Assembly: GCA_946497145.1 (NCBI GenBank)
Contig: CAMMJA010000003.1
Coordinates: 1,169-65,168, forward strand
Direction: 5' to 3'
Length of the DNA stretch: 64,000 nt
Source of the DNA: an uncultured Mycoplasmatota bacterium
GTDB lineage: Bacteria > Bacillota_I > Bacilli_A > RF39 > UBA660
Positions 41,164 through 55,472 of this stretch are shown in pieces. How positions within the stretch are numbered: the stretch's first letter is position 1; each line of letters starts with the position of its first letter. A program made the translations under genes and the position numbers. Under the pieces are notes generated by a model. That model did not search any database, had not been told where the DNA came from, and saw only the letters and a program-made list of their open reading frames with translations.

Positions 41164-41249
41164 GTGATTTTGCTTCACATTTTTTTTGAAATCGTTTATA
41201 CTAGTAGTAGAGATAAGAGTATAAGTGAGGGTAGAAGAATACTTTTAAA

Positions 41250-41400
41250 CTTGAGCGCCAGGACTAATTAGTTGACGAGGTTGGTAGTAATCGAAAGATT
41301 CGGCGGATGCTATCACGGAACGCGAAATCGTTAGATGTATGACAAAAGGTAAAATCTTGAATACTACAAAACATATATCTTCGCACATTTTTGTTGTGGA
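41250..41400 (+). promoter_or_regulatory. glmS ribozyme/riboswitch
   Basis: Core AGCGCCAGGACU...GACGAGG...AUCGAAAGAUUCGGCGGAUGC matches the conserved glmS ribozyme core, directly upstream of glmS. Boundaries are approximate. Confidence 0.85.
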
Positions 41401-41410
41401 GGTATTTTTT

Positions 41411-43228
41411 ATGTGTGGAATTATTGGTTACATTGGGAAAAAACACAATGTAACAGATGTTTTAATTACGGGGCTTAAGGCCTTAGAATATAGAGGGTAT
41501 GATTCAGTAGGAATTGCTTTATGGAATGAGGATATGTTTAAGTTAATTAAATCTGCTGGCAAGATTAGTCATTTAGAAGATAAAATTCGCAAGGAAGGAA
41601 ATATGACTAGCCAAATGGGAATTGGCCATACGAGATGGGCAACGCATGGGGAACCAAATGATACCAATTCTCATCCTCATCGTGTAGGAAATGTGACTTT
41701 GGTACACAATGGTATTATTGAGAATTACCAAGAATTAAAAGAAGAGTTGATCAAAAAAGGGTATCATTTTGCGTCTGATACAGATACGGAAGTGATTGCT
41801 TCCTTATTGGATGACATCAAGAAAAATAAAGAAAATTATTTGGAAATTTTACAAGAGTTGACGACTCGTTTAAGGGGTTCTTATGCCTTAGGAATTGTTT
41901 TTGATCAGGATAAAAATCATTTGTATGCACTAAGAAAAGATAGTCCATTAATTCTTGGAATTGGGGATAAAGAGAACTTTATTGCTTCTGATATTCCGGC
42001 GATTATTCCTTATACGAAGCAATATATTTTGTTGGAAGCAGGAGAGATAGCAAGATTAAGTGAAGATGGTATCGATCTTTTTGATACTTCTTTGAAGCCA
42101 ATTTCAAAAAAAATCCAACAAGTAAATTGGACCATGGAACAGGCGGAAAAAGGTGGATATTCGCATTTCATGTTGAAAGAGATCATGGAAGAAGAAAGGG
42201 TATTAAAAGATACTATTCTGCCTTTTGTAAAAGATAAAGAAACATTATTAAGTAAGATGCCTGATTTGAAGAAGTATGATCAAGTTCACATTGTCGCATG
42301 TGGTAGTGCGATGCATGCTGGACTTGTGGGAAAATATTTAATAGAAACGTATGCGAACATTCCTGTTACCGTAGAAGTAGCAAGTGAATATCGCTATAAA
42401 AAGAATTTTTATACGGATCATACTTTGGTTATTTTGGTATCGCAATCTGGAGAGACGGCCGATACCATCGCAGCACTTCGTTTGGCAAAGGAATCTAAAG
42501 TGGATACTTTAGCGATCGTCAATGTGTATGGTAGTACCATTGCAAGAGAAAGTGATCAGGTGTTATATATTTATGCAGGTCCTGAGATTGCTGTGGCAAC
42601 GACAAAGGCATATACGTTACAAGTTGCTATGTTGTCATTGGTGGCTTTGACGATGGCTATTAATCATAAGCAAATGAAAGAAGAAGAAATTACCATGTTG
42701 TTAGAAGCGTTTCAAAATTTACCCGAAATATTAGGTGGATTGTTGGAAAAACAAGAAAGTTATTTTGAAATAGCCAAGATGTTAGATGGTAGTGAAGATG
42801 TTTTCTTCTTAGGTAGAGGTGTCGATTATGCACTAGCGATGGAAGGAAGTTTGAAATTAAAAGAAATTTCTTATATTCATAGTGAAGCGTATCAAGCAGG
42901 TGAGCTAAAACATGGAACTATTTCGTTAATTGAAAAAAACACACCGGTTATTGCTTTGGTAACGGATGAAAAGTTGGCGGAAAAGACCATTAGTAACATT
43001 AAAGAAGTGAAGGCAAGAGGGGCGAAAGTTATATTGGTTACGTTAGAATCGTTAGATCGTGATTATGATTTCTGCGATCAAAAGATTGTATTGCCAGTTG
43101 TTCCACCTTTTGTACAACCAATTTTGGTTATGCCACCGTTACAATTGTTGTCGTTTGAAGTTGCAAGAAGACGTGGTTGTGACATTGATAAACCAAGAAA
43201 TCTTGCCAAATCGGTTACGGTAGAATAA
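41411..43228 (+). CDS. glmS: Glutamine--fructose-6-phosphate aminotransferase
   Basis: MCGIIGY N-terminus, two SIS domains, C-terminal KSVTVE. The ORF track start at 41339 runs into the ribozyme and is rejected. Confidence 0.95.
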   Translation: MCGIIGYIGKKHNVTDVLITGLKALEYRGYDSVGIALWNEDMFKLIKSAGKISHLEDKIRKEGNMTSQMGIGHTRWATHGEPNDTNSHPHRVGNVTLVHNGIIENYQELKEELIKKGYHFASDTDTEVIASLLDDIKKNKENYLEILQELTTRLRGSYALGIVFDQDKNHLYALRKDSPLILGIGDKENFIASDIPAIIPYTKQYILLEAGEIARLSEDGIDLFDTSLKPISKKIQQVNWTMEQAEKGGYSHFMLKEIMEEERVLKDTILPFVKDKETLLSKMPDLKKYDQVHIVACGSAMHAGLVGKYLIETYANIPVTVEVASEYRYKKNFYTDHTLVILVSQSGETADTIAALRLAKESKVDTLAIVNVYGSTIARESDQVLYIYAGPEIAVATTKAYTLQVAMLSLVALTMAINHKQMKEEEITMLLEAFQNLPEILGGLLEKQESYFEIAKMLDGSEDVFFLGRGVDYALAMEGSLKLKEISYIHSEAYQAGELKHGTISLIEKNTPVIALVTDEKLAEKTISNIKEVKARGAKVILVTLESLDRDYDFCDQKIVLPVVPPFVQPILVMPPLQLLSFEVARRRGCDIDKPRNLAKSVTVE

Positions 43229-44503: not shown

Positions 44504-44520
44504 AAATACGTATTTCACAT

Positions 44521-44597
44521 GGCGATGTTGGTGAAGTGGTTAACACGCTGGTTTGTGGCACCAGTATGCAAGGGTTCGATTCCCTTACATCGCCCCA
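44521..44597 (+). tRNA. tRNA-His (anticodon GUG), CCA encoded
   Basis: The cloverleaf folds by hand. The 8-bp acceptor stem includes G-1:C73. Anticodon stem CTGGT/ACCAG with loop TTGTGGC. T arm AAGGG-TTCGATT-CCCTT. Confidence 0.95.
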
Positions 44598-44630
44598 TAA
44601 TGGAAAAAAGTCGAATAGACTTCAAGATAA

Positions 44631-44657
44631 AAATCGATTCTTACGAGTCGATTTTTT
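44631..44657 (+). terminator. Rho-independent terminator after tRNA-His
   Basis: 10-bp stem AAATCGATTC/GAGTCGATTT, TTAC loop, T run. Confidence 0.7.
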
Positions 44658-44827
44658 GTTGTCTCAAAAATGATAAACAATTTCGGTCAATTCATTTCAT
44701 ATGTGTTTGCGTTTGCTATTTTTTTTCATAAAAAACCAAAATACTCATTTTTTTCACCTCTATATTTTTATCTTTTTTAAAATTTATGATATGATGTAGT
44801 TAGCAGAAAGTAAAGGAGAGATGAATC

Positions 44828-47800
44828 GTGAAGAAAAATTATGTTTTGGGAGTCGATATCGGTATTTCATCTGTTGGTTGGGGGCTATTACAATTAAATG
44901 AAAAAAATGAGCCGTTTAAAATACTTGATACCGGTGTTAGGATATTTACTCCAGGAGAAGTGCCTAAAACAGGTGCTAGTAAAGCTTTAGAAAGGCGTCA
45001 AAAAAGGGGAACTAGAAGAATTAATCAAAGAAGAGAATATAGGTTAGATAGAGTTCGACTTCTCTTAAGTAACAATGGCTTTCTTCCTAAAGTTTCCAGT
45101 GAGATTAAACCGAGTGAAAGGGAAGAGATCTTAACATTAGAATTTGATAAGTTATTAAATGAATACTACAAAAATAAAAATACCAATCCTTATGAGTTAA
45201 AAGTAGAAGCATTAAGAAGGAAACTTTCTAATGAAGAGTTAGTCATCATTTTGAATCATTATGCGAAACATCGTGGTTATAAATCTAATAGAGAAGATGC
45301 GAAAGACAGCGAAAATGGTAAAATAAAAACTTCTATTAAAGAAAATGAAAACATCATGAAAGATAAGCACTACGAAATAGTAAGCGAGATGTTTATAAAA
45401 GATGATAAATTTAAAGATAAGATCAGAAATACAACCGATGATTATAAGATGTCTGTCACAAGAGAAATGTATTTAGCAGAAATAGAAAAAGTATTAACTT
45501 CTCAAATTAAATATGGACTCATCACAGAAAAATTTAAAGAGGAATATTTAAACATATGGAAGGGCCAAAGACATTATTCTAAAGGTCCAGGATATTATTT
45601 TTATCAAGAAGATGGTGTTACAAAGAAAAAACTATCTCCTTATGGAGATGAGAAAAGTTTAATCGCAAGAATGGTAGGTACTTGTAAATTTGATCATCTA
45701 CCACGAGCACCTAAATGTGCACCTTCATCTGAACTTTTTGTATTTTTAGAAAGATTATTGAATTTACGTTATAAGAATTTAGATAATTATGAAAAATTAA
45801 ATTCTAATCAAATTAAAAGAATAATAGAACTTGCTAAAACGAAAGATAAAGTTACTTATCAAGATATTGCTAAAATAATGGATTTATCTCATGTAATTTT
45901 TAAAGATAATAAATTGAGTAAAAATGATTATGTGAAATGTATTTCTGAATATAAAACGAAATATAAGATGGAAAAATTTGATTTTAATCAATTAACACTT
46001 GAAGAGAAGGATATCTTTCATGAATTGTTGAACAAGAAAAAAATAGATAGTGATTTTGGAGGAATAAAAACTTATTCTGTTTTTAGAAAAAATTTTACCA
46101 AATGGAACAAAGATGAGTGGGATAGAATCAAAGATAACTTTAAACTATTAGATGAAATTGCTGTGATTGTGACTGATTGCAAACTCGATGAAGATATCAA
46201 AAAAGAGGTCGAGAAATCGGATGCGATAGATGATCGTTATTATGAAGTTATCATTGATTTACCTAACTTAAAAGATCATTTAATGTTATCTTTAAATTTA
46301 ATATATAGATTAATTCCATTCATGTTAGAGGGTAATCGTTATGATGAAGCAATGGGGTTATTAGGGTTCAATCACAGTAATGCGTATGAAGACGCCATCA
46401 AGTATGATTTATTACCTCCAATAGATAGTGAGGATGGTATTACAAATCAAAGAGTTTTAAGAAGCGTTGCTCAAGCAAGAAAAGTAATAAATGCTATTAT
46501 TAAACAATATGGACTCCCTAAAGAAATAAAAATAGAAACGGCAAGAGAATTGGCTAAAACAAGAGAAGAGAGAAACAAAATAGAAAAAGCACAAAAAGAA
46601 AGATTTGAAAATAATTTAAGTATTAAACAATATTTAGCAACACTGTTACCTCATATTTTTCCAAGTGTTGATTATATATCAAGCACAGACTTATTAAAAT
46701 ATAAGTTATGGCAAGAACAAGGGGAACTATGCCCATATTGCCTGGAAAGGATAAAAATAGAGGAACTTTTTGATAATAATATAGTGCAAATAGATCATAT
46801 TTTACCTTATTCTAGAACTTTTGATGATAGTTATTTTAATAAAACTTTGGTATTTACGAAATATAATCAAGAAAAACGAGAAAAGATACCTTACGAGTGG
46901 TTTGGTAATACTATAAAATGGGAAAAATTTAAAAATTATATTATGTCTTTGAATATGAGTGATAGAAAGAAAGATAATTATTTACTTACGAAATTAACGG
47001 ATGAAATGGCTAACGAAATGCGTAATCAAAATTTAAATGATACGAAATATATTAGCAAATATCTAGTAAGTTTTATGAAAGCACATTTAAATGTTGAAAA
47101 AATAAGTTCTTATAGTGGTTCTCTTACAGGTAGATTAAGAGCAAGATGGGGTCTAAATGGTTTAACTCATAGTTTGGAATCAAGCAATTATCGTATAAAG
47201 AGAAACAACTATGAAGAAATAAAAAAGAATAGGGAGAACCATTTACATCATGCGATGGATGCTTTAGTTATCGCTTCTATTACAAAAAGTTTAGAACAAA
47301 AAATAGTTGAATATGAAAAGTTGTATCGCTATTTTGTTAATGCTACGAGTAGTACATTACAAGAATATATGGATCGTAATGATTTTTATATTACGGATTA
47401 TATAGATGAAAAAACAGGAGAAGTTACGAATAAAAGTATAAAAGAGTATATTGAAGATGGTTTAAGAAATGGCAAAATAAAAAATAGTTTAAAACATAAA
47501 GAAGTATATTATTTGGATTTTCCATTACCATATGAAAACTTTGATAAAGAATCTATACTGCGTGTTTATGAAAGAAATGCGGATGTTTTAAGAAGTGAAT
47601 TAAAAGAAATTGGTACTTATACCGATGAAGAACTTAATAGAGTTCATCCAATCTATCCTTCTTTTGCAAAACCAAAATTAAGTGGAGCATTACATAAAGA
47701 AACTTATTATGGTTATAACAAGGAAAAGAATACTTTGACGAATCGAATGAATGTAAATTCTACTAGTTTTAATAGAGAAAAATTAGATAGTATTGTGGAC

Positions 47801-48430
47801 CTAAAAAGTGGTAGTCAAGAAGTATATCGTACTTTGGTAAAATGGTTGGAAGGTTTTAAAAATGGAAAAGAAGCATACGATAAAAAGGGATATCCAATGA
47901 ATGAGAAAAGTGGAAATTTAATCAAAAAAGTTACGATAGAAACACCATATGAAGGTAAAGGTCATTTAATAAACGGAAAATTTGTAGAGAAAGAACATGT
48001 TTATCAGGTAAGTATTTATAAAAAAGATCATGATGATAGATTATATTTTGTAGGTTTTGATTTGTTTGATCTGGCACAAATTAAACGTAACAAAGATTTT
48101 GATTTAGTACTGTGGTATGGTTCAGGTAATTTAAAAATAAATTTAAAATATAGTGAGCTTAATCACGAATATTCTCATTATTTAGATTTACCGAAAAATC
48201 AATTGATAAAAGTTTTTACAACCAATAATATAGAAGTCATTTGTTATGTGGTTGGTTTTTCTAGTGGTGGTTTGTTAGAAGTAAAGGGACTAATTGGCGA
48301 TGGGAAAGATATATATGGCAACAATTGTTTATTTGAAAACCAAAGAAGGCAATATCGAATTGTAATTTCAAATATAAAAGATATTAAGAAGTTAGATATT
48401 ACGGTATTAGGTGAGATTTGTGGGCTATAG
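44828..48430 (+). CDS. cas9: Cas9 (type II effector, 1200 aa)
   Basis: RuvC-I GVDIGISSVGWG, Arg-rich bridge helix RRQKRGTRRINQRREYR, HNH QIDHILPYS...NKTLV, RuvC-III HLHHAMDALVIA. GTG start with a GGAG RBS. Confidence 0.97.
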   Translation: MKKNYVLGVDIGISSVGWGLLQLNEKNEPFKILDTGVRIFTPGEVPKTGASKALERRQKRGTRRINQRREYRLDRVRLLLSNNGFLPKVSSEIKPSEREEILTLEFDKLLNEYYKNKNTNPYELKVEALRRKLSNEELVIILNHYAKHRGYKSNREDAKDSENGKIKTSIKENENIMKDKHYEIVSEMFIKDDKFKDKIRNTTDDYKMSVTREMYLAEIEKVLTSQIKYGLITEKFKEEYLNIWKGQRHYSKGPGYYFYQEDGVTKKKLSPYGDEKSLIARMVGTCKFDHLPRAPKCAPSSELFVFLERLLNLRYKNLDNYEKLNSNQIKRIIELAKTKDKVTYQDIAKIMDLSHVIFKDNKLSKNDYVKCISEYKTKYKMEKFDFNQLTLEEKDIFHELLNKKKIDSDFGGIKTYSVFRKNFTKWNKDEWDRIKDNFKLLDEIAVIVTDCKLDEDIKKEVEKSDAIDDRYYEVIIDLPNLKDHLMLSLNLIYRLIPFMLEGNRYDEAMGLLGFNHSNAYEDAIKYDLLPPIDSEDGITNQRVLRSVAQARKVINAIIKQYGLPKEIKIETARELAKTREERNKIEKAQKERFENNLSIKQYLATLLPHIFPSVDYISSTDLLKYKLWQEQGELCPYCLERIKIEELFDNNIVQIDHILPYSRTFDDSYFNKTLVFTKYNQEKREKIPYEWFGNTIKWEKFKNYIMSLNMSDRKKDNYLLTKLTDEMANEMRNQNLNDTKYISKYLVSFMKAHLNVEKISSYSGSLTGRLRARWGLNGLTHSLESSNYRIKRNNYEEIKKNRENHLHHAMDALVIASITKSLEQKIVEYEKLYRYFVNATSSTLQEYMDRNDFYITDYIDEKTGEVTNKSIKEYIEDGLRNGKIKNSLKHKEVYYLDFPLPYENFDKESILRVYERNADVLRSELKEIGTYTDEELNRVHPIYPSFAKPKLSGALHKETYYGYNKEKNTLTNRMNVNSTSFNREKLDSIVDLKSGSQEVYRTLVKWLEGFKNGKEAYDKKGYPMNEKSGNLIKKVTIETPYEGKGHLINGKFVEKEHVYQVSIYKKDHDDRLYFVGFDLFDLAQIKRNKDFDLVLWYGSGNLKINLKYSELNHEYSHYLDLPKNQLIKVFTTNNIEVICYVVGFSSGGLLEVKGLIGDGKDIYGNNCLFENQRRQYRIVISNIKDIKKLDITVLGEICGL

Positions 48431-49307
48431 GCAAGTTGTTATTAAAAAATGTGAAAAACTTCATTTAGAAGATAGGCAACTAATAGTAAGTAAAGATAAT
48501 AATAGTTATAAAGTTCCACTTGAAGATATTAACTTTGTTTTGATAGAAGATAATACAACTACCATTACATCCAAAATTTTAGCAGCTTTTGGAGAAGAAG
48601 GAATATGTTTTATAGTTTGCGATGATAAGTTTGAACCAGTCAGTATTATGTATCCATACAATTATCATTTTAAACAATTAGAAAACATAGAAAAACAATT
48701 ATTTTTAGATCATAATTCTAAAAAGATAATATGGAAAGAAATCATAAAAGCAAAAATAGAAAATGAGATAGCTGTATTGTGTCAGACAAGTAAAGAAGAA
48801 AAGGTGATTAACAAATTATCACAATATGTGACGGAAGTAAGTCCAGGAGATGAAACCAATAGGGAAGGATTATCTGCAAAAATGTATTTTAGAAGCTTGT
48901 TTGGAAGCGAATTTATAAGATTTTATGATGATGCTATGAATGCAGGATTAAATTATGCTTATCAAATTGTTAAGAGTTCTATCATTAGAACTCTTAGCAT
49001 TTATGGCCTTAATTCTTATTTAGGGGTGAATCATAAATCTAAAGTAAATAATTTTAATTTAGTGTATGATTTGATAGAACCATATAGAGCAATAATAGAT
49101 TTATATGTATATAAATTAAAAGAACGTATCACATCGCCTCTTTCATTTGAAGTGAGAAAAGAATTGATCAATGTTTTAAATATACCAGTTATGACTAATA
49201 ATAAGAAATGTAGTTTAGAATATAGTATTGAAATATTAATAAAAAGTTATATCAAAACTATTAGTACAGGAGAAGTTGATTTGATATTTCCAAAGATTAT
49301 AGAATAG
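48411..49307 (+). CDS. cas1: Cas1 integrase
   Basis: 298 aa with NAGLNYAYQIV...GVNHKS...NLVYDLIEPYRAIID motifs. Overlaps cas9 by 20 nt. Confidence 0.9.
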   Translation: MRFVGYRQVVIKKCEKLHLEDRQLIVSKDNNSYKVPLEDINFVLIEDNTTTITSKILAAFGEEGICFIVCDDKFEPVSIMYPYNYHFKQLENIEKQLFLDHNSKKIIWKEIIKAKIENEIAVLCQTSKEEKVINKLSQYVTEVSPGDETNREGLSAKMYFRSLFGSEFIRFYDDAMNAGLNYAYQIVKSSIIRTLSIYGLNSYLGVNHKSKVNNFNLVYDLIEPYRAIIDLYVYKLKERITSPLSFEVRKELINVLNIPVMTNNKKCSLEYSIEILIKSYIKTISTGEVDLIFPKIIE

Positions 49308-49319
49308 AAGTGAAATGGT

Positions 49320-49643
49320 GTGATAAATAGATTTATGAGATTAATCGTAATGTTTGATTTGCCAGTAGTTACAGCAGAAGAAAAACAAATATATAGCAAA
49401 TTTAGAAAGTTTTTATTGAAAGATGGCTATATTATGATTCAATTTTCGATATATTCTAGAATTTGTAAAAATAGTGATGATGTAACCAAACACATTAATA
49501 GAATAAGACAAAATTTGCCAGATAAAGGTAATATTAGATTATTACAAGTTACAGAAAAACAATACCAAGATATGATGTTGTTATGTGGTAGCAAAGTAAC
49601 AGAAGAAGATATCTCTATTGAAAATATGATTGTATTTGAATAA
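49320..49643 (+). CDS. cas2: Cas2
   Basis: ~105 aa with MRLIVMFDLPV and a ferredoxin-like pattern. Start is GTG 49320 or ATG 49335. Confidence 0.85.
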   Translation: MINRFMRLIVMFDLPVVTAEEKQIYSKFRKFLLKDGYIMIQFSIYSRICKNSDDVTKHINRIRQNLPDKGNIRLLQVTEKQYQDMMLLCGSKVTEEDISIENMIVFE

Positions 49644-49672
49644 AACATCCACTAAAAAGTGGATGTTTTTAA
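49643..49672. terminator. Bidirectional hairpin terminator between cas2 and the tracrRNA 3' end
   Basis: Perfect 10-bp stem AAACATCCAC/GTGGATGTTT, flanked by A and T runs. Confidence 0.8.
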
Positions 49673-49679
49673 AATAAAC

Positions 49680-49776
49680 AAAAAGGTCGACTTGATTAAA
49701 GTTCGACCAATTCTTAGGCATTAGTGCCTTATTACAGTAACCTGTAAAAATTTGAGTAATATACATCTTTCGATGT
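49680..49776 (-). ncRNA. tracrRNA
   Basis: Minus-strand AUUACUCAAAUUUUUACAGGUUACUGUAA pairs with repeat nt 2-31, with one mismatch, one G-U pair and one bulged U. It is followed by the nexus-like UAAGGCACUAAUGCC hairpin. The terminator is GGUCGA...UCGACC plus U5. Confidence 0.85.
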
Positions 49777-49778
49777 AA

Positions 49779-50846
49779 TTAGATCATATCAATAATTTCA
49801 TAATCTGTCAATAACTTTTCGCAAACTAATTTTAGTAATTCAAGTTCATATTTGTCTTTATAAAAAATATAGTTATTTAAAATACCATTGTATAAAGATG
49901 TAAAATAAACTTTATTACTAACTAAAATAATACCGATATTGTTTTTTTGAAACATATACAAATTATTTTTTATTCGGTTTAAATCATTTTTGTTTATTAG
50001 ATGATTATTTTCTTGTATAAATTCTGCGTATTCTATTTTGCTATTAGATTTTTTATATTGTTCAAATAATATATGTTTTTTTAATATATTATCAATATTA
50101 TTGAAGTTAATTAATTTATTATCTTTAATTTTATAAATACTGTAATCATCAGGATCTAAATAACGATATATGTTAGAATTATTTGTGCTGATGATGAAAT
50201 GACAATGATGTTTATTGAGAATTGTGATTAAATTTAAAATTTCTATTATGCTTTCATTATCTAAATATAAATCAAAGTCGTCAATCATAATAAATGTTTC
50301 TTTGTCTTTGCTAGTATTAAAAAGAAGTAGTTGATATAATAATTTTCTTCTATCACTTTTTGATATTTCTTTTGTATTAATTAAGTCATTTACATAAATC
50401 GTGGTAAATTTATCAATTATTTTATCGATGTCATCAATATCTATGTTAAATGTTATTTTATTTTTAGAATTATTATTTATATTTTTTTCTAAATATTTAT
50501 TAACGGCATTATCGATGTTATCTAGACTATTATTTATTTCGGCTAGTATTTTTTCTTTATCGATGGTTTTATATATTGCATCGTATAAGGAAGTTTTAAA
50601 AATATTATTTTGGGTAAACTTGAATTCGTTATTAAAGTCCGTTTCTTCGTCAAAATAAATAATATTGTATTCATCTTTGTTTATTTCTAAAGAATTTAAA
50701 TAAAAGTTTTTATTTTTCCCACTTAATCCTTCTTTTATTAATTTTAATAGAGTTGTTTTTCCTGATTTGTTAGAACCAAATATTATTAGATTGTTATTAA
50801 AAGATATGGAAGAATCAATGTTTTGATATTTAAAATTTATTTGCAT
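49779..50846 (-). CDS. P-loop (ABC/AAA_21-like) ATPase of unknown function inside the CRISPR-Cas locus
   Basis: 355 aa. Walker A GSNKSGKT (aa 24-31), ABC-signature-like ISKSDRRKLLYQLLL (aa 161-175), Walker B TFIMIDDFD (aa 184-192). GGTGA RBS. Very N/K/I-rich and visibly more AT-rich than the cas genes. Confidence 0.75.
   Translation of the reverse strand: MQINFKYQNIDSSISFNNNLIIFGSNKSGKTTLLKLIKEGLSGKNKNFYLNSLEINKDEYNIIYFDEETDFNNEFKFTQNNIFKTSLYDAIYKTIDKEKILAEINNSLDNIDNAVNKYLEKNINNNSKNKITFNIDIDDIDKIIDKFTTIYVNDLINTKEISKSDRRKLLYQLLLFNTSKDKETFIMIDDFDLYLDNESIIEILNLITILNKHHCHFIISTNNSNIYRYLDPDDYSIYKIKDNKLINFNNIDNILKKHILFEQYKKSNSKIEYAEFIQENNHLINKNDLNRIKNNLYMFQKNNIGIILVSNKVYFTSLYNGILNNYIFYKDKYELELLKLVCEKLLTDYEIIDMI
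49783..49811 (-). promoter_or_regulatory. tracrRNA promoter embedded in the last 11 codons of the ATPase ORF
   Basis: Minus-strand TTGACA (49811-49806), 17-nt spacer, TATGAT (49788-49783). Predicted TSS near 49776. Confidence 0.65.
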
Positions 50847-50879
50847 ATACTTATCACCTATATGAATTATATCAAAAGA

Positions 50880-50908
50880 TTGTAAAAAATAGTAAATTAT
50901 TATATAAT
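50880..50908 (+). promoter_or_regulatory. CRISPR leader promoter
   Basis: TTGTAA, 17-nt spacer, TATAAT. Predicted TSS ~3 nt before repeat 1. The whole leader is only 71 bp (50847-50917). Confidence 0.55.
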
Positions 50909-50917
50909 GAATTTGAG

Positions 50918-52339
50918 GTTACAGTACCCTGTGAAATTTGAGTAATATTGATGAACTTATAACGCATATAACGACAGTGTGTAGTTACAGTACCCTGTGA
51001 AATTTGAGTAATATTGATGAACTTATAACGCATATAACGACAGTGTATAGTTACAGTACCCTGTGAAATTTGAGTAATATTGATGTTATATGCCTCTTGA
51101 ACCTTTTGCAATGCAGTTACAGTACCCTGTGAAATTTGAGTAATATTGATGAACTTATAATGCTTCTAACGACAGTATATAGTTACAGTACCCTGTGAAA
51201 TTTGAGTAATATTGATGTACACCAGTATTTGAAGATAATAGTATATAGTTACAGTACCCTGTGAAATTTGAGTAATATTGATGAAATGAATTTGCTTTTA
51301 AATTTATAATCAGGTTACAGTACCCTGTGAAATTTGAGTAATATTGATGAACTTATAATGCATATAACGACAGTATATAGTTACAGTACCCTGTGAAATT
51401 TGAGTAATATTGATGTTTAATTTCGCTAATATGGTTAAAAATAAAGTTACAGTACCCTGTGAAATTTGAGTAATATTGATGATCTACCCAATATCCAGCC
51501 AAAGCACGGTCGTTACAGTACCCTGTGAAATTTGAGTAATATTGATGTGTGTGATGATCATGATCAGGTTGCCAGAAGTTACAGTACCCTGTGAAATTTG
51601 AGTAATATTGATGTCTGCTCAGTCAGAAGAGGATACGATTGTGGTTACAGTACCCTGTGAAATTTGAGTAATATTGATGCCTGAGATTCGGGCATTGGTA
51701 AAGAAAAGAGTTACAGTACCCTGTGAAATTTGAGTAATATTGATGGAACCATATTCTGCCATTTCTAAACAAGTAGTTACAGTACCCTGTGAAATTTGAG
51801 TAATATTGATGCTATTATTTTTTAACTCTTTTACATTTTCTGTTACAGTACCCTGTGAAATTTGAGTAATATTGATGAATGCTGTTAACATCAAATGATA
51901 AATAACCGTTACAGTACCCTGTGAAATTTGAGTAATATTGATGGGTTGTATGTCAATAACCTAAATTAGATTAGTTACAGTACCCTGTGAAATTTGAGTA
52001 ATATTGATGTTGTTCAAAAAACAAAAGAAATGTTCAAGTGTTACAGTACCCTGTGAAATTTGAGTAATATTGATGATTGACAGAGTTCAAGAATGAAGAA
52101 CAAATGTTACAGTACCCTGTGAAATTTGAGTAATATTGATGTTATCTTGCAAAACTGCATTTACATAGTTCGTTACAGTACCCTGTGAAATTTGAGTAAT
52201 ATTGATGTTAGCAATCCTATACTCACTTGTCTCCAACGTTACAGTACCCTGTGAAATTTGAGTAATATTGATGAAAAGTTTATTAACTATTGAAGAAATA
52301 ACTGTTACAGTACCCTGTGAAATTTGAGTAATATTTATA
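50918..52339 (+). CRISPR. CRISPR array: 22 x 36-bp repeats (GTTACAGTACCCTGTGAAATTTGAGTAATATTGATG), 21 x 30-bp spacers
   Basis: All 22 repeat starts were checked at an exact 66-bp period from 50918 to 52304. The last repeat is degenerate (..ATATTTATA). Orientation follows from tracrRNA complementarity, the leader promoter and the position of the degenerate repeat. Confidence 0.98.
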
Positions 52340-52607: not shown

Positions 52608-52808
52608 CTAGTCTAAATTACCTAATTTATTTAGTATGGTTTCGCACATTATACCTTCATCTGTTAAACCGTCATCATCAGTCAAACAATGAAGCATCAT
52701 ATAGTCAGCCAATTGATCTTCTACATCTGCCATGTCTTCATATTTTTTTACAATTTTATTTAGTAACTGTTTTTCATCAACTGTTAATACTTTCAATAAA
52801 TTTTCCAT
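52608..52808 (-). CDS. Small acidic protein, putative immunity partner of the adjacent toxin domain
   Basis: 66 aa, D/E-rich. Its start overlaps the stop of the upstream toxin-like ORF. AGCACC/GGTGCT hairpin at its 3' end. Confidence 0.45.
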   Translation of the reverse strand: MENLLKVLTVDEKQLLNKIVKKYEDMADVEDQLADYMMLHCLTDDDGLTDEGIMCETILNKLGNLD

Positions 52809-53137
52809 TATTCATCACCATACTTTTTAATTTTATCTTTTCCAGTTTTCCATACAGTCGTTATTGTATTATTATCCGGATTAACTGTTATGGTTGCTTT
52901 TCTTCCTATATATCTTATAGATTTTCTTCCTTTTTCACCTACTTTGATTGTATCAATATTCAAGGGATTTGTAAATGCGTCTGCCATGTCTTCATAAGGT
53001 ATATCTCTAAATATTTTTCTTTCAAATAAATGTTGGCTTACATCTTTGATTTCTATATTTCCGTTTTTAAGACCTATCAACCCAGTATCTGCCTTTTTCT
53101 TATCTTCTCTCATTTTCCAATTTTGATAAGATTTCAT
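52808..53137 (-). CDS. DUF4258-like toxin C-terminal domain, probably a 5'-truncated orphan module
   Basis: SQHLFERKIFRDI...GRKATITVNPDNNTITTVW fits the DUF4258 pattern (H..ER...I, ending ..iTvy/w). The frame stays open for 36 more codons upstream (to 53245) without a start codon. Confidence 0.45.
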   Translation of the reverse strand: MKSYQNWKMREDKKKADTGLIGLKNGNIEIKDVSQHLFERKIFRDIPYEDMADAFTNPLNIDTIKVGEKGRKSIRYIGRKATITVNPDNNTITTVWKTGKDKIKKYGDE

Positions 53138-53600
53138 TGCTTTAACACTAGACTTAGAACTTAACGATGTACTTCCTATCCATTCATTTGCTGTTATTCT
53201 AGTTCTTCCGGTTTTATCTAGAAAATCTAAATATACTAACGATAGTTACAGGATTAACTGGGTGATATAGTTATTATGCCAATGGAAATTGAATCGATAG
53301 CTAAGTTGAATAGGGTTGTGACTATTTACGGAAAAGAACAATATGACGGAAACGATAAAAATTCTTCGATTGGTGGTTATATGGAACAGAGAATATTATC
53401 TATGATATAGATTCTGGAATAATAAAAAAAGAAGGAAATACTAGGATACAATATCCAAGAAGCATTCCTTCTTTTTCTGTAGATAATATATCACAATCTA
53501 ACCGAACAGTCAAATTTGATACATCATTTGATGTAGTAAACTTAAAAATATGGGAATTTTTCCCTTTTTATTATATAATAAAAGTATTAGAGGTGATCTT

Positions 53601-54623
53601 ATGCACGTAGAAGAAATTTTAAGCCAATATCCATGGATCAAAGATGAACATCAAAAATTAATCATCAGTCCTGATAGCGATGGACTTCTTTGTGCGTTAC
53701 TTTATTTAAATTATTTTGATGGAGAAGTAGTTGGCTTTTATGATGGTAAAGTCATGCTTGTAAAAGATGGAATATCCCCAAAAGATTGTTTGTTCTTAGA
53801 TATGGATGTCTTTCATTCTAGTTTTAGAAGTGTAGGCCATCACATGGTAATGTTAAATAAAAAGAGATTACCTAGCAATTGGGATCGTTATCAGAACTGT
53901 CTTCAAGTGAACAACTTGCGCAATTTCGATAAAACCAATGATTTTCAGAGAAAATATCCGCTGGCTACCATTCATTTTTTACTTACAATCTTAAGTCATG
54001 TTAAAGAAATTTCGTTATCTGAAGAAGCGGTTGTTCCTCTCTTGTTTTCAGATGGTGTTTGGATTGTCTTGTTTGGTTATACCGAAAATTGTTTGGAATG
54101 GTTTGATTGGTTAGGAATTACGAAAGAAGAATCTATTTTATATCCGATTTTTTGTGGAAAAAAATCTTTTTTGGAAATCATGCAAGATATTAATGACTTT
54201 TTAAGACAAAGAGATTCACTGAATGCCAAGGGATCTTTTGATTTTCGCACTCAAACTTTTATAGAAAAGGCATCTAGAAGAACAGGAGACCGCCTGATCA
54301 TTTCAACTAGTAAAGGAGAACCAGTTAACATTGAGAAAAAAGAAGATCATCTTTATGATATTTATCAAGAAGAAGTAAATCGAGTTACTTGTTTTATTGA
54401 ATTGTTGGCACATTCTATGGGATGGAATGCTAAACTTGATAAATGGAATTTTCAAAATTTGAAACTTTATCTGTTTAAAAAAAGTAGTTTAGATGGTAAA
54501 AATCGTAAGTTGAATTTAAAAAATTATAACGAAGTAGTAGAGAATCATTGCTTTTCTATGGCAATCACATCGTCTACCCAATTAGAGTATACGATTGATG
54601 AAAATCATTTGTTTGATGACTAA
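53601..54623 (+). CDS. Uncharacterised 340-aa protein, candidate restriction endonuclease partner of the convergent methyltransferase
   Basis: AGAGGTGA RBS before ATG 53601. Contains a PD(24-25)...DGK(48-50) arrangement compatible with PD-(D/E)XK. Shares a hairpin terminator with the methyltransferase gene. Confidence 0.35.
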   Translation: MHVEEILSQYPWIKDEHQKLIISPDSDGLLCALLYLNYFDGEVVGFYDGKVMLVKDGISPKDCLFLDMDVFHSSFRSVGHHMVMLNKKRLPSNWDRYQNCLQVNNLRNFDKTNDFQRKYPLATIHFLLTILSHVKEISLSEEAVVPLLFSDGVWIVLFGYTENCLEWFDWLGITKEESILYPIFCGKKSFLEIMQDINDFLRQRDSLNAKGSFDFRTQTFIEKASRRTGDRLIISTSKGEPVNIEKKEDHLYDIYQEEVNRVTCFIELLAHSMGWNAKLDKWNFQNLKLYLFKKSSLDGKNRKLNLKNYNEVVENHCFSMAITSSTQLEYTIDENHLFDD

Positions 54624-54650
54624 AAAAACTTGTCTTGTGACAAGTTTTTA
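54622..54650. terminator. Bidirectional terminator shared by convergent genes
   Basis: Perfect 10-bp stem AAAACTTGTC/GACAAGTTTT with a TTGT loop. Confidence 0.85.
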
Positions 54651-55472
54651 TGTTTCTTTTTGAATTCTTTCTTCGGCTAAATCACAATATTCTTGTGAAA
54701 TATCAAAGCCCAAAAAGTTTCGTTTGAGTTTGATTGCTGATACAGCAGTAGAGCCACTTCCCATAAATGGATCTAATACAATACCATTTTCTGGACAAAA
54801 GCAAGTAATTAAGTCGTAAGGAATTTGATCAGGAAAAACGGCTGGATGTTTTCTTTTAAGAGGGTTTTTATCACCTGCCATCATGTAGTCCCAAACAGTA
54901 CCGCGACACTTCATCGTATTGATTTGACGAGTGATTGTTTTAGTTGTTTCCCCATTGGTTTTACGATTGCCACTTCCAGTCATCACTTTTCCACCATGTT
55001 TAGACGGCACTTTCAACGGTTCTTTGTTAAAATATTGGGGTTTATGTCCTTTTAAGAATAGGGGAATGTACTCATGATCTACTCGAAATCTCGATTTCCA
55101 CCAGGCCCCCTCTGTACCATTTTTATGGTAAATAATGTTTTCAAATAATTTAAAACCAATGTTATCTACCCAGTCGACCATCATTCGAAACGAAGTCATA
55201 CTTTTGCCGAAATCTTTGGTTTGATCTTGAATTACCACTGCACAGATTCCACCGTCTTTTAAAATACGGTAAATTTCTTTTCCTGTTTCATGTAAATCTA
55301 TTTGAAATCCATTATATTTTCTTAAATTATCATAGGGTGGAGAAGTGACGACTAAATCGATGCTATTGGATTTGATTTTTTTCATTGCTTCGATGCAATC
55401 TGCACAATAAATATGATTGATTTGATAAATATTATCTTGAGAAATTTCAGTTTGATTCATTGTTACCACCAT
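54648..55472 (-). CDS. Beta-class amino DNA methyltransferase (N4-cytosine or N6-adenine)
   Basis: Motif IV DLVVTSPPY near the N-terminus and motif I LDPFMGSGSTAV near the C-terminus. An alternative start is M5 (55460). Confidence 0.85.
   Translation of the reverse strand: MVVTMNQTEISQDNIYQINHIYCADCIEAMKKIKSNSIDLVVTSPPYDNLRKYNGFQIDLHETGKEIYRILKDGGICAVVIQDQTKDFGKSMTSFRMMVDWVDNIGFKLFENIIYHKNGTEGAWWKSRFRVDHEYIPLFLKGHKPQYFNKEPLKVPSKHGGKVMTGSGNRKTNGETTKTITRQINTMKCRGTVWDYMMAGDKNPLKRKHPAVFPDQIPYDLITCFCPENGIVLDPFMGSGSTAVSAIKLKRNFLGFDISQEYCDLAEERIQKET

What the first reader, a model, noticed from the sequence alone, without database searches (positions are those of the whole stretch)
49779..50917. 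Intact Walker A/B ATPase encoded antisense between tracrRNA and CRISPR leader of a csn2/cas4-less type II locus
Seen in sequence: the locus reads cas9-cas1-cas2 (+), tracrRNA (-), a 355-aa ORF (-), a 71-bp leader, then the array (+). The ORF is tightly interlocked with the RNA genes.
- The tracrRNA -35 and -10 boxes (TTGACA, 17-nt spacer, TATGAT) are written across its last 11 codons (..LTDYEIIDMI*).
- Its ATG is 71 bp from repeat 1, so it shares the leader divergently with the array promoter.
- The protein has a canonical Walker A (GSNKSGKT), an ABC-signature-like segment ~20 aa before a Walker B (IMIDDFD), and a ~130-aa C-terminal domain I cannot assign.

Established knowledge: type II-A loci carry csn2 in exactly this position, between cas2 and the leader. 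Csn2 has been described as a DNA-end-binding ring whose core resembles an inactivated P-loop ATPase, and long Csn2 forms are ~350 aa. ABC/AAA_21-type ATPases are also the core of several phage-defence systems.

Inference: this could be an uncharacterised CRISPR-associated adaptation factor, that is, a catalytically intact Csn2 analogue. Alternatively it could be a defence ATPase captured inside, and co-regulated with, a type II-C-like locus. The local match IMIDDFDLYLDNESIIEILNL versus my recollection of S. pyogenes Csn2 [21 protein letters not shown] is suggestive only.
Basis: partly seen in the sequence, partly recalled or inferred. Interest (0 to 1): 0.85.

Follow-up and report, generated by a model that had tools for sequence, protein, structure and literature searches.

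The report
Csn2 variant keeping ATP-binding motifs
The "mystery ATPase" between the tracrRNA and the CRISPR array is this locus's own Csn2 spacer-acquisition gene, from a known but unstudied subfamily that points the opposite way to cas9-cas1-cas2 and, unlike textbook Csn2, still carries ATP-binding motifs.

Summary
The tracrRNA promoter lies in the ORF's last 11 codons. Walker A (GSNKSGKT) and Walker B (IMIDDFD) are present.

The locus is not csn2-less. An existing curated profile (PADLOC PDLC01597, "Csn2, CAS-II-A") matches the ORF end to end at E=3e-60. The leader ends in the type II-A motif ATTTGAG. The tracrRNA has a II-A-type nexus.

All 14 distinct relatives with readable flanks (23-84% identity) lie next to, and convergent with, cas2-cas1-cas9. 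This is a fixed cas gene, not a captured defence ATPase or a recent insertion.

The predicted fold is ABC-ATPase-like. Crystallised Csn2 gave the best target-normalised TM-score (0.55) and lowest RMSD among the 50 best hits. Sequence-level homology to canonical short Csn2 could not be shown.

In the wider family, 89 of 100 representatives keep Walker A. One nested clade lost Walker A and Walker B together. The H-loop histidine is absent at the canonical position, and the catalytic Glu is Asp here, so ATP binding is plausible but hydrolysis is doubtful.

Verdict: a new member of a known kind. It is moderately interesting as a natural handle on whether Csn2 can use ATP.

The parts
44828..48430 (+). 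cas9 (1200 aa)
   Evidence: TIGR01865 Cas9 E=6.6e-176; HNH_4 and RuvC_III domains
48411..49307 (+). cas1, type II
   Evidence: TIGR03639 cas1_NMENI E=7e-82
49320..49643 (+). cas2
   Evidence: TIGR01573 E=5.5e-27
49644..49667 (.). Hairpin flanked by A/T runs between the two converging units. It is a likely bidirectional terminator for cas2 (+) and for read-through csn2/tracrRNA transcripts (-).
   Evidence: Sequence; 10-bp stem in the fold. The simple terminator scan did not flag it.
49676..49776 (-). tracrRNA, about 100 nt. Anti-repeat about 49732-49767, nexus hairpin 49717-49728, GGTCGA...TCGACC hairpin 49685-49708 followed by a U-tract. The ends are inferred.
   Evidence: Duplex with the repeat -37.8 kcal/mol. 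Repeat/anti-repeat co-variation in L001, L003, L005, L013, L014 and L021. Conserved core and nexus. No Rfam hit at the gathering threshold.
49783..49811 (-). tracrRNA promoter (TTGACA, 17 nt, TG-n-TATGAT) embedded in the last 11 codons of csn2
   Evidence: Best site in the region, 11 of 12 with TG. The same dual coding is conserved in the two Walker-intact groups of the close family. In the degenerate group the -35 sits on the stop codon.
49779..50846 (-). csn2 (355 aa, Csn2 subfamily recognised by PADLOC PDLC01597). Walker A at 50754-50777, signature-like motif at 50343-50366, Walker B/D-loop from 50271 (the Walker B heptad is 50271-50291). ABC-like core is residues 1-247. Unassigned C-terminal domain is residues 248-355.
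   Evidence: PADLOC Csn2 E=3.3e-60 full length. AF2 pLDDT 80; Foldseek hits ABC, OLD and GajA ATPases and Csn2 3TOC/3S5U. Motifs. The C-terminal domain has no PDB fold match.
50847..50917 (.). 71-bp leader carrying back-to-back divergent promoters. csn2 side: SD AGGTGA 50854-50859 and extended -10 TGATATAAT 50866-50874 on (-). Array side: promoter TTGTAA-17-TATAAT 50880-50908 on (+). Leader-end motif ATTTGAG 50911-50917.
   Evidence: Sequence. Array promoter 10 of 12. The csn2 extended -10 was read by eye and is conserved in L001 and L003. ATTTGAG is the group-1 type II-A leader-end motif needed for adaptation (PMC5382924).
50918..52339 (+). CRISPR array: 22 repeats (GTTACAGTACCCTGTGAAATTTGAGTAATATTGATG) and 21 spacers of 30 nt. 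The terminal repeat is degenerate.

Best explanation
The ORF is the csn2 gene of a type II-A CRISPR-Cas locus. It belongs to a divergent long Csn2 subfamily found, so far as seen, in uncultured AT-rich Bacilli.

[quoted passage not shown] It is transcribed from its own promoter in the leader, divergently from the array in most loci examined. It runs co-directionally into the tracrRNA and converges on cas2 at a shared terminator. tracrRNA can therefore come both from its own promoter inside the csn2 3' end and from csn2 read-through.

Shown here:
- Identity by profile, and strict linkage to cas9-cas1-cas2.
- II-A hallmarks in the leader and the tracrRNA.
- An ABC-ATPase/Csn2-like predicted fold.
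- Conservation of Walker A, Walker B, the signature-like motif and the D-loop.

Inferred:
- The protein works like characterised Csn2. That is, it acts as a multimeric dsDNA-end-binding partner of Cas1-Cas2 (and Cas9) that holds prespacer DNA for integration at the ATTTGAG leader-repeat junction.
- In this less-derived form, nucleotide binding at the head-domain interface gates oligomer closure or DNA clamping, as in Rad50/SMC/ABC dimers, rather than driving fast turnover. The reasons are that the H-loop His is absent at the canonical position and the catalytic Glu is Asp (Asn in many relatives).
For: Profile identity:
- PADLOC Csn2 model PDLC01597 matches at E=3.3e-60 over the full length.
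- 96 of 101 distant full-length relatives hit the same Csn2 model. Relative P0040 hits it at 1e-117 over 338 of 338 positions.

Genomic context:
- The same convergent csn2 | cas2-cas1-cas9 layout holds in L001, L002, L003, L005, L006 (also L007, L008), L009 (also L010), L013, L014 (also L015), L016 (also L017), L018 (also L019), L020, L021 and L022.
- These span csn2 identities of 23-84%. Cas9 identity is 52-81% in the four loci where it was measured.

II-A hallmarks:
- The leader ends in ATTTGAG, the group-1 II-A adaptation motif (PMC5382924).
- The tracrRNA has an AAUAAGGC...GCC nexus, and its anti-repeat co-varies with the repeat.

Fold:
- AF2 gives pLDDT 80 and pTM 0.72.
- Foldseek gives OLD 6p74 at 3.5e-8, ABC nucleotide-binding domains, GajA, and Csn2 3toc_B (E 9.5e-6, TMt 0.55, rmsd 6.6) and 3s5u_E (TMt 0.56, rmsd 6.3). 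The Csn2 hits have the best target-normalised TM and lowest rmsd in the top 50.

Motifs:
- K30, S162-K163-S164, R167 and F191-D192 are invariant.
- 89 of 100 representative relatives keep GxxxxGK[ST]. Where Walker A is lost, the Walker B Asp is usually lost too: 47 of 60 such sequences carry N, K, Q or H instead. That pattern is expected if the two motifs act together.

Active adaptation:
- All 21 spacers are exactly 30 nt.
- Leader-proximal spacers 1, 2, 4 and 7 are variants of one protospacer.
Against: - No Pfam or NCBIfam Csn2 model matches.
- HMMER profiles of the family hit ABC ATPases in the PDB but not Csn2 chains. The best are retron PtuA at 1e-16, SMC, AriA and GajA.
- hhalign against two canonical short Csn2 proteins is not significant: probability below 1%, E 0.066-0.27.
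- Canonical Csn2 proteins hit a disjoint set of PADLOC Csn2 models.
- The link to crystallised Csn2 therefore rests on fold similarity, genomic position and the curators' label.
- No biochemical data exist for this subfamily. The experimental Csn2 papers held in the library never mention ATP.
- Missing H-loop His and Asp in place of the catalytic Glu make hydrolysis uncertain.
- The 108-residue C-terminal domain is unexplained.
Confidence: 0.8

Rival explanations
1. Non-orthologous replacement. This would be an ABC/SMC-type ATPase recruited independently into the csn2 slot of a type II locus. It helps adaptation, but through an ATP-driven mechanism of its own (for example a Rad50-like end-tethering clamp), not as a Csn2 ring. 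It is called 'Csn2' only because of where it sits.
For: - By sequence the family is closer to bona fide ABC ATPases than to solved Csn2 proteins. The A2 profile hits retron PtuA at 1e-16, plus SMC, AriA, GajA and Rad50, with no Csn2 chain in the top 60.
- hhalign against canonical Csn2 is not significant.
- The PADLOC model sets are disjoint.
- The top Foldseek hits are OLD, ABC and GajA proteins.
- Nucleotide-binding motifs are intact in 89% of representatives.
Against: - Foldseek aligns Csn2 3TOC and 3S5U with the best target-normalised TM and lowest rmsd in the top 50.
- Canonical Csn2 is itself regarded as a derived P-loop ATPase (PMC10734277), so greater similarity of a less-derived member to ABC ATPases is expected.
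- The locus shares the II-A leader-end motif and tracrRNA type.
- From my memory of Chylinski 2014 (the paper is not held in the library), such families were unified with Csn2 by profile-profile analysis.
- The only weak hhalign alignment falls on the equivalent Walker-B strand.
Confidence: 0.13
2. A stand-alone phage-defence ATPase of the AAA_21 / PARIS AriA / Gabija GajA / Septu PtuA type. It would have been captured inside the CRISPR locus and be merely co-located or co-regulated with it.
For: Weak PADLOC cross-hits to mad8 (4e-12), AriA (6e-10) and GajA (4e-8). Foldseek similarity to GajA and OLD.
Against: - The Csn2 model scores about 50 orders of magnitude better.
- There is no TOPRIM or other nuclease domain, and no partner gene.
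- All 14 distinct relatives with readable flanks are fixed next to cas2-cas1-cas9 in the same orientation, across 23-84% identity.
- No copies were found on plasmids or in PHROGs.
- The tracrRNA promoter is dual-coded in its conserved C-terminus.
Confidence: 0.04
3. A regulator or scaffold of CRISPR RNA expression. The protein, or merely transcription of its gene, would control leader and tracrRNA promoter activity rather than taking part in spacer capture.
For: The gene shares a 71-bp divergent promoter region with the array, and its 3' end contains the tracrRNA promoter. csn2 transcripts must read into the tracrRNA.
Against: - No DNA-binding regulator domain was detected.
- In the P0040 clade the array is inverted and the divergent promoter arrangement is lost, yet the gene is kept.
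- In distant members the tracrRNA is not in the gap at all; L018 has a 31-bp gap and L020 an overlap.
Confidence: 0.03

Closest known systems
Csn2 of type II-A CRISPR-Cas: the divergent long subfamilies defined by Chylinski et al. 2014 and represented by PADLOC model PDLC01597
   Same: Full-length profile match (E=3e-60). About 350 aa. Encoded beside cas2 and the array of a Cas9 locus. ATTTGAG leader end. P-loop/ABC-derived fold.
   Different: - The window protein is only 37-46% identical to the clade that best fits the model (P0040 scores 1e-117).
- Unlike that clade it keeps canonical Walker A and Walker B.
- It has a 7-residue C-terminal tail that encodes the tracrRNA -10 box.
Canonical short Csn2 (S. 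pyogenes 3TOC, E. faecalis 3S5U, S. thermophilus 6QXF): a Ca2+-dependent tetrameric ring that binds dsDNA ends and joins Cas1-Cas2/Cas9 in spacer capture
   Same: The predicted core superposes on it (TMt 0.55-0.56). The genomic role slot is the same.
   Different: - About 220 aa against 355 aa.
- No nucleotide-binding motifs, and no ATP requirement reported.
[quoted passage not shown]
- No detectable sequence similarity (hhalign probability below 1%).
ABC/SMC-type ATPases of defence and repair systems (OLD, Gabija GajA, PARIS AriA, Septu/retron PtuA, Rad50, SMC heads)
   Same: Best sequence and fold matches in the PDB. Shared Walker A, signature-like motif, Walker B and D-loop. A helical insertion lies between Walker A and the signature motif.
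   Different: No H-loop histidine at the canonical position. Asp or Asn at the catalytic Glu position. No fused or adjacent nuclease. No long coiled coil. Always tied to cas9-cas1-cas2.

Membership tests
Csn2 (type II-A signature protein) | Encoded in a cas9-cas1-cas2 locus next to cas2 and the CRISPR array | tested here: met
   True in the window and in all 14 distinct related loci with readable flanks. The orientation is inverted relative to textbook II-A.
Csn2 (type II-A signature protein) | Matches a curated Csn2 sequence profile | tested here: met
   PADLOC PDLC01597 at E=3.3e-60 over the full length, plus PDLC02142 at 8e-12 and PDLC01379 at 3e-4. No hit to any Pfam or NCBIfam Csn2 model at E<=1.
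Csn2 (type II-A signature protein) | Detectable homology to structurally characterised (short) Csn2 | tested here: inconclusive
   - Foldseek: 3toc_B at E 9.5e-6 and TMt 0.55; 3s5u_E at TMt 0.56.
- hhalign against Listeria and Nicoliella Csn2: probability below 1%.
- HMMER against the PDB finds no Csn2 chain at E<=10 with the A1 profile and none among the 60 best with A2.
- The PADLOC model sets are disjoint.
Csn2 (type II-A signature protein) | P-loop-ATPase-derived alpha/beta head with an inserted helical domain | tested here: met
   The AF2 model has beta-strands around the Walker A and Walker B positions, with helices 69-176 inserted between them. Fold hits are to ABC ATPases and Csn2.
Csn2 (type II-A signature protein) | Inactivated nucleotide-binding site (as described for the studied Csn2 proteins; PMC10734277) | tested here: not met
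   Walker A GSNKSGKT and the Walker B Asp are intact here and in 89 of 100 representative relatives. This is a descriptive trait of the studied members rather than a definition. A nested clade of the same family does show the inactivated state.
Csn2 (type II-A signature protein) | Tetrameric ring that binds dsDNA ends, interacts with Cas1-Cas2, and is required for adaptation | not testable with these tools
   Needs biochemistry, genetics or multimer modelling. The only indirect sign is an apparently active array (uniform 30-nt spacers; repeated acquisition at one protospacer).
Type II-A CRISPR-Cas locus | Conserved leader-end adaptation motif (ATTTGAG/GTT junction) and a tracrRNA with an AAGGC...GCC nexus | tested here: met
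   ATTTGAG at 50911-50917 directly before repeat 1. The motif is defined in PMC5382924. That this nexus form is typical of II-A tracrRNAs (St1Cas9/SaCas9 type) is my recollection, not tested here.
   A fourth, Csn2-profile-positive gene is present and conserved.
Catalytically competent ABC ATPase | Walker A GxxxxGK[ST], Q-loop Gln, signature LSGGQ, Walker B hhhhDE, D-loop, H-loop His | tested here: inconclusive
   - Present: Walker A, the Walker B Asp, the D-loop (LYLD), and a signature-like ISKSD with invariant S162.
- Deviant: Asp190 in place of the catalytic Glu (Asn in many relatives), an acidic DEETD cluster in place of the Q-loop, and FIISTNN in place of the H-loop His. The canonical TTHS form appears only in the AAA_15/21-like outliers of the set.
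- Activity cannot be judged from sequence.

The most novel reading that the evidence does not exclude
This Csn2 subfamily is an ATP-gated DNA clamp. It would be the ancestral, still nucleotide-dependent form of Csn2, in which ATP-driven head engagement (as in Rad50/SMC/ABC dimers) captures or measures prespacer DNA for Cas1-Cas2. Within one family, nature has supplied matched ATP-motif-intact and ATP-motif-dead versions in otherwise identical loci. That would show how an adaptation factor shed its energy requirement.
Probability: 0.3. Interest if true: 0.65.

Novelty: new member of a known kind. Interest (0 to 1): 0.38.

Why it matters
Csn2 is the least understood component of type II-A adaptation. 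In the reviews available to me it is described as an inactivated P-loop ATPase, and the experimental papers I could read never consider nucleotides.

This locus belongs to a sizeable, uncultured-Bacilli branch of Csn2 in which the nucleotide-binding motifs are the rule (89 of 100 representatives). In one sub-clade they were lost together. That gives a direct, cheap test of whether ATP ever matters for spacer capture: K30A and D189A mutants, and swaps between motif-intact and motif-dead proteins. It also gives a plausible picture of how canonical Csn2 evolved from an ABC-type ATPase.

The compact layout is also a tidy natural design for expressing adaptation and guide-RNA components. It combines divergent csn2 and array promoters in 71 bp, the tracrRNA promoter dual-coded in the csn2 C-terminus, and a shared terminator with cas2.

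It does not reveal a new kind of system. Standard CRISPR typing profiles already call it II-A.

Tried and rejected
- **Pfam and NCBIfam scans.** Only sub-threshold ABC, SMC and AAA hits; no Csn2 model.
- **PDB sequence searches.** The single protein and two family profiles found ABC ATPases only.
- **Rfam at the gathering threshold.** No tracrRNA family hit; only the glmS ribozyme and a tRNA.
- **Names for homologs.** None of 67 clusters or their members carries an informative name.
- **Exact-sequence contig lookup of the window protein.** Not on record.
- **Metagenome locus scan with the divergent alignment A3.** I replaced it with a profile search plus contig lookups.
- **Spacer targets.** A degenerate pattern for spacers 1, 2, 4 and 7 found nothing in viral contigs. 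The whole array found nothing against GenBank phages.
- **C-terminal domain (residues 248-355).** The separate AF2 model was good (pLDDT 81), but there was no PDB fold match; the best E was 1.8. It stays unassigned.
- **Direct profile-profile comparison with canonical Csn2.** I fetched Csn2 from the Listeria and Nicoliella records; the comparison was not significant.
- **Plasmid and phage-family searches for the protein.** No match.
- **Literature.** Chylinski 2014 (PMC4041416), Makarova 2015 (PMC5426118), Makarova & Koonin 2015 (PMC5901762) and Nam 2011 (PMC3162437) are not held. I could not check whether intact Walker motifs or the inverted orientation of this subfamily were explicitly described.
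- **Rejected readings.** Spurious ORF: it has a strong SD and is conserved in 67 clusters. Recent insertion: the architecture is conserved down to 23% identity. Gabija-, PARIS- or Septu-like module: there is no nuclease partner.
Full report
**1. What is in the sequence**

- **Genes.** The window carries cas9 (44828-48430), cas1 (48411-49307) and cas2 (49320-49643) on the + strand. All three have strong type II family matches. On the - strand lies a 355-aa ORF (49779-50846).
- **Leader and array.** A 71-bp leader (50847-50917) separates the ORF's ATG from a 22-repeat array (50918-52339) of 36-nt repeats. All 21 spacers are exactly 30 nt, and the last repeat is degenerate.
- **tracrRNA.** The 135 bp between the cas2 stop and the ORF stop encode a - strand RNA. 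Its 5' part pairs with the repeat at -37.8 kcal/mol. It continues with an AAUAAGGCACUAAUGCC nexus hairpin, a GGUCGA...UCGACC hairpin with a U-tract, and a second hairpin (49644-49667) that abuts the cas2 stop.
- **Support for the tracrRNA.** In related loci the anti-repeat changes together with the repeat; duplex energies are -33 to -44 kcal/mol in L001, L003, L005, L013, L014 and L021. The nexus is conserved with one compensatory pair. The tracrRNA call is therefore well supported even though Rfam has no hit.
- **tracrRNA promoter.** TTGACA-17-TGnTATGAT (49811-49783) is the best sigma-70-like site in the region.
- **Array promoter and leader end.** The array has TTGTAA-17-TATAAT at 50880-50908. 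The leader ends in ATTTGAG.

**2. What the ORF is**

- **General libraries.** Pfam and NCBIfam give only sub-threshold ABC, SMC and AAA hits.
- **Defence-system library.** PADLOC, which incorporates curated cas profiles, matches its Csn2 model PDLC01597 at E=3.3e-60. The match covers residues 1-340 against model positions 1-331 of 338. Two further Csn2 models hit more weakly.
- **Consequence.** The locus is type II-A, not csn2-less or II-C-like.
- **Independent II-A hallmark.** ATTTGAG at the leader-repeat junction is the group-1 type II-A leader-end motif shown to be required for adaptation in S. thermophilus CRISPR1 (PMC5382924).
- **Literature context.** That paper also records that Chylinski et al. 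2014 defined five Csn2 subfamilies, that operon organisation correlates with the Csn2 subfamily, and that long Csn2 forms are considered ancestral. Earlier, Chylinski et al. 2013 noted 'novel' fourth genes in II-A loci with no obvious similarity to Csn2 (PMC3737331).

**3. Family and context**

- **Close family.** A single-sequence search found 20 clusters. A profile search found 67. None carries an informative name.
- **Wider family.** An exhaustive profile search of 1.84 billion representatives found 150 relatives at E<=1e-3. Of 101 full-length ones, 96 hit the same Csn2 model.
- **Genomic context.** I obtained context for the window plus 14 distinct loci: L001, L002, L003, L005, L006, L009, L013, L014, L016, L018, L020, L021, L022, with near-duplicates L007, L008, L010, L015, L017 and L019. 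They span csn2 identities from 84% down to 23-29%. Cas9 identity was 52-81% in the four loci where it was measured. In every one the gene lies next to, and convergent with, cas2-cas1-cas9.
- **Loci without usable flank.** The two P0060 contigs (L011, L012) end just past the gene, and L004 is too short. These three are uninformative.
- **tracrRNA position.** In the closer clade the convergence gap of about 135-190 bp holds the tracrRNA. In the most distant members the gap is 31 bp or an overlap, so the tracrRNA must lie elsewhere.
- **Variants.** One locus (L021) has an IS element inserted between the tracrRNA and cas2. One clade (P0040; L006-L008) has the array flipped, so csn2 follows the terminal degenerate repeat.
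- **Verdict on the rival readings.** The inverted csn2 is an old, fixed feature of this subfamily. This rules out a recent insertion or a captured defence gene. The protein has no plasmid copies or phage-family matches.

**4. Motifs**

- **Close family (alignment A1).** There are three groups:
  - The window's group has GSNKSGKT with I[IM]IDDFD.
  - A second group has [GS]xNxxGK[TS] with ILID[DN]FD.
  - A third group has GQDSxFKN with IIIKNFD, so both Walker motifs are degenerate.
- **Invariant across all three groups.** K30, an acidic cluster (E67, E68, D70), the signature-like S162-K163-S164...R167, and F191-D192. The D-loop-like YL[DN] is conserved but alternates D and N.
- **Wider family.** 89 of 100 full-length representatives keep Walker A. 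Within the close family only 16 of 65 clusters do.
- **Joint loss.** Where Walker A is lost, the Walker B Asp is N, K, Q or H in 47 of 60 cases. That pattern suggests a working nucleotide site in the intact members.
- **Points against full catalytic competence.** The residue after the Walker B Asp is D (52), N (24) or E (12) among Walker-intact sequences. The H-loop position reads FIISTNN or FILTTNK. The canonical TTHS H-loop appears only in the few AAA_15/21-type outliers.
- **Conclusion on the motifs.** They argue for nucleotide binding. They do not establish hydrolysis.

**5. Structure**

- **Whole protein.** AF2 with the family alignment gives pLDDT 80 and pTM 0.72.
- **Foldseek against the PDB.** It returns OLD nuclease (3.5e-8), many ABC nucleotide-binding domains, GajA (TMq 0.47-0.48), SMC and Rad50 heads, and Csn2 from S. 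pyogenes (3toc_B, E 9.5e-6, TMt 0.55, rmsd 6.6 Å) and E. faecalis (3s5u_E, TMt 0.56, rmsd 6.3 Å). The Csn2 hits have the best target-normalised TM-scores and lowest rmsd in the top 50.
- **C-terminal domain.** Residues 248-355 model confidently on their own (pLDDT 81). They match nothing in the PDB; the best E is 1.8.

**6. How firm is 'Csn2'?**

- **Sequence comparison.** I fetched two canonical short Csn2 proteins from annotated records: Listeria (L023) and Nicoliella (L024). hhalign of the family profiles against them is not significant (probability below 1%).
- **Model sets.** The canonical proteins hit a set of PADLOC Csn2 models disjoint from those hit by this family.
- **The recalled peptide.** It is real, but it belongs to S. 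thermophilus Csn2 (6QXF, residues 164-184), not S. pyogenes.
- **Where that leaves membership.** It rests on the curated profile label, the invariant genomic role slot, the II-A leader and tracrRNA traits, and fold similarity. Direct sequence homology to crystallised Csn2 was tested and not shown. I therefore keep a 0.13 rival in which an ABC ATPase was recruited independently.

**7. Most likely mechanism**

- **Shown.** This is a Csn2-profile gene fixed in a II-A locus, with its own SD (AGGTGA) and a probable extended -10 (TGATATAAT, 50866-50874). That promoter sits back to back with the array promoter. The gene is co-directional with the tracrRNA and has no terminator in between.
- **Inferred: transcription.** csn2 mRNA reads through the tracrRNA to the U-tract or the shared hairpin terminator. 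tracrRNA is then made both from that read-through and from the internal promoter.
- **Inferred: protein function.** The protein multimerises on dsDNA ends and partners Cas1-Cas2 (and Cas9) to deliver 30-bp prespacers to the ATTTGAG/repeat-1 junction, as described for studied Csn2 (PMC3695520, PMC6620040, PMC6182153; listed).
- **Inferred: role of ATP.** In this subfamily, ATP binding between Walker A of one head and the signature Ser of another stabilises the closed, DNA-bound state, with slow or no hydrolysis.
- **Sign of activity.** The uniform spacer length and the four leader-proximal variants of one protospacer (spacers 1, 2, 4 and 7) suggest the adaptation machinery is active.

**8. Novelty and score**

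Existing typing tools already recognise this gene and locus. The subfamily concept and subfamily-specific operon layouts are published.

What is under-appreciated, at least in the literature I could read, is that most of this branch keeps its nucleotide-binding motifs. Reviews describe Csn2 as an 'inactivated P-loop ATPase' (PMC10734277), and experimental papers ignore nucleotides. I could not read Chylinski 2014 to see whether this was already noted.

I rate it a new member of a known kind, with interest 0.38.

Noticed in passing
window 50954-51379 (spacers 1, 2, 4, 7): Four leader-proximal spacers are variants of the same 30-nt protospacer (AACTTATAAYGCWTMTAACGACAGTRTRTA), differing at 1-5 positions. 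This looks like repeated re-acquisition from escape variants of one target, or a strongly preferred site. No match was found in IMG/VR contigs or GenBank phages.
   Followed up: partly
L006 6545-8001 (also L007, L008): In the common human-gut clade (P0040, degenerate P-loop) the array is flipped relative to the window. The order is leader, array, then csn2 starting 22 nt after the terminal degenerate repeat, then the tracrRNA, all on one strand and converging on cas2. csn2 there may depend on read-through from the array.
   Followed up: partly
L021 4768-6092: An IS element (rve integrase ORF plus a 148-aa ORF) is inserted between the tracrRNA and cas2 in an otherwise syntenic locus. A Mn-catalase/cotJC gene lies beside cas9 there, as in the window.
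   Followed up: no
window 44522-44597: tRNA-His (GTG) lies about 230 bp upstream of cas9. The 70-aa ORF 44519-44731 that overlaps it is probably spurious. The CRISPR locus sits between this tRNA and a restriction-modification-like pair, which resembles a small defence island.
   Followed up: no
window 53550-55472: A type II N6/N4 DNA methyltransferase (54648-55472, - strand; PADLOC MTase_II at 4e-49) converges on a 357-aa ORF (53550-54623, + strand). That ORF has no hit in Pfam, PADLOC or PHROGs. It is a candidate cognate restriction endonuclease of an undescribed family.
   Followed up: partly
window 52608-53137 (-): Two small overlapping ORFs (109 aa and 66 aa) lie directly beyond the distal end of the array on the opposite strand. 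Neither has a hit in Pfam, PADLOC or PHROGs. Function unknown.
   Followed up: partly
window 41243-41411: A glmS ribozyme (Rfam RF00234, 64 bits) lies upstream of glmS. The ORF lister's start at 41339 is inside the ribozyme. The true start is probably the MCGIIGY methionine near 41411.
   Followed up: no
window 49779-50846, residues 66-75: An invariant acidic cluster (D-E-E-T-D-F-N-N-E-F) occupies the position of the ABC Q-loop. It is kept even in relatives that lost both Walker motifs, as is K30. It may be a metal (Ca2+) or DNA-contact site, given the Ca2+ dependence reported for canonical Csn2. This is speculative.
   Followed up: no
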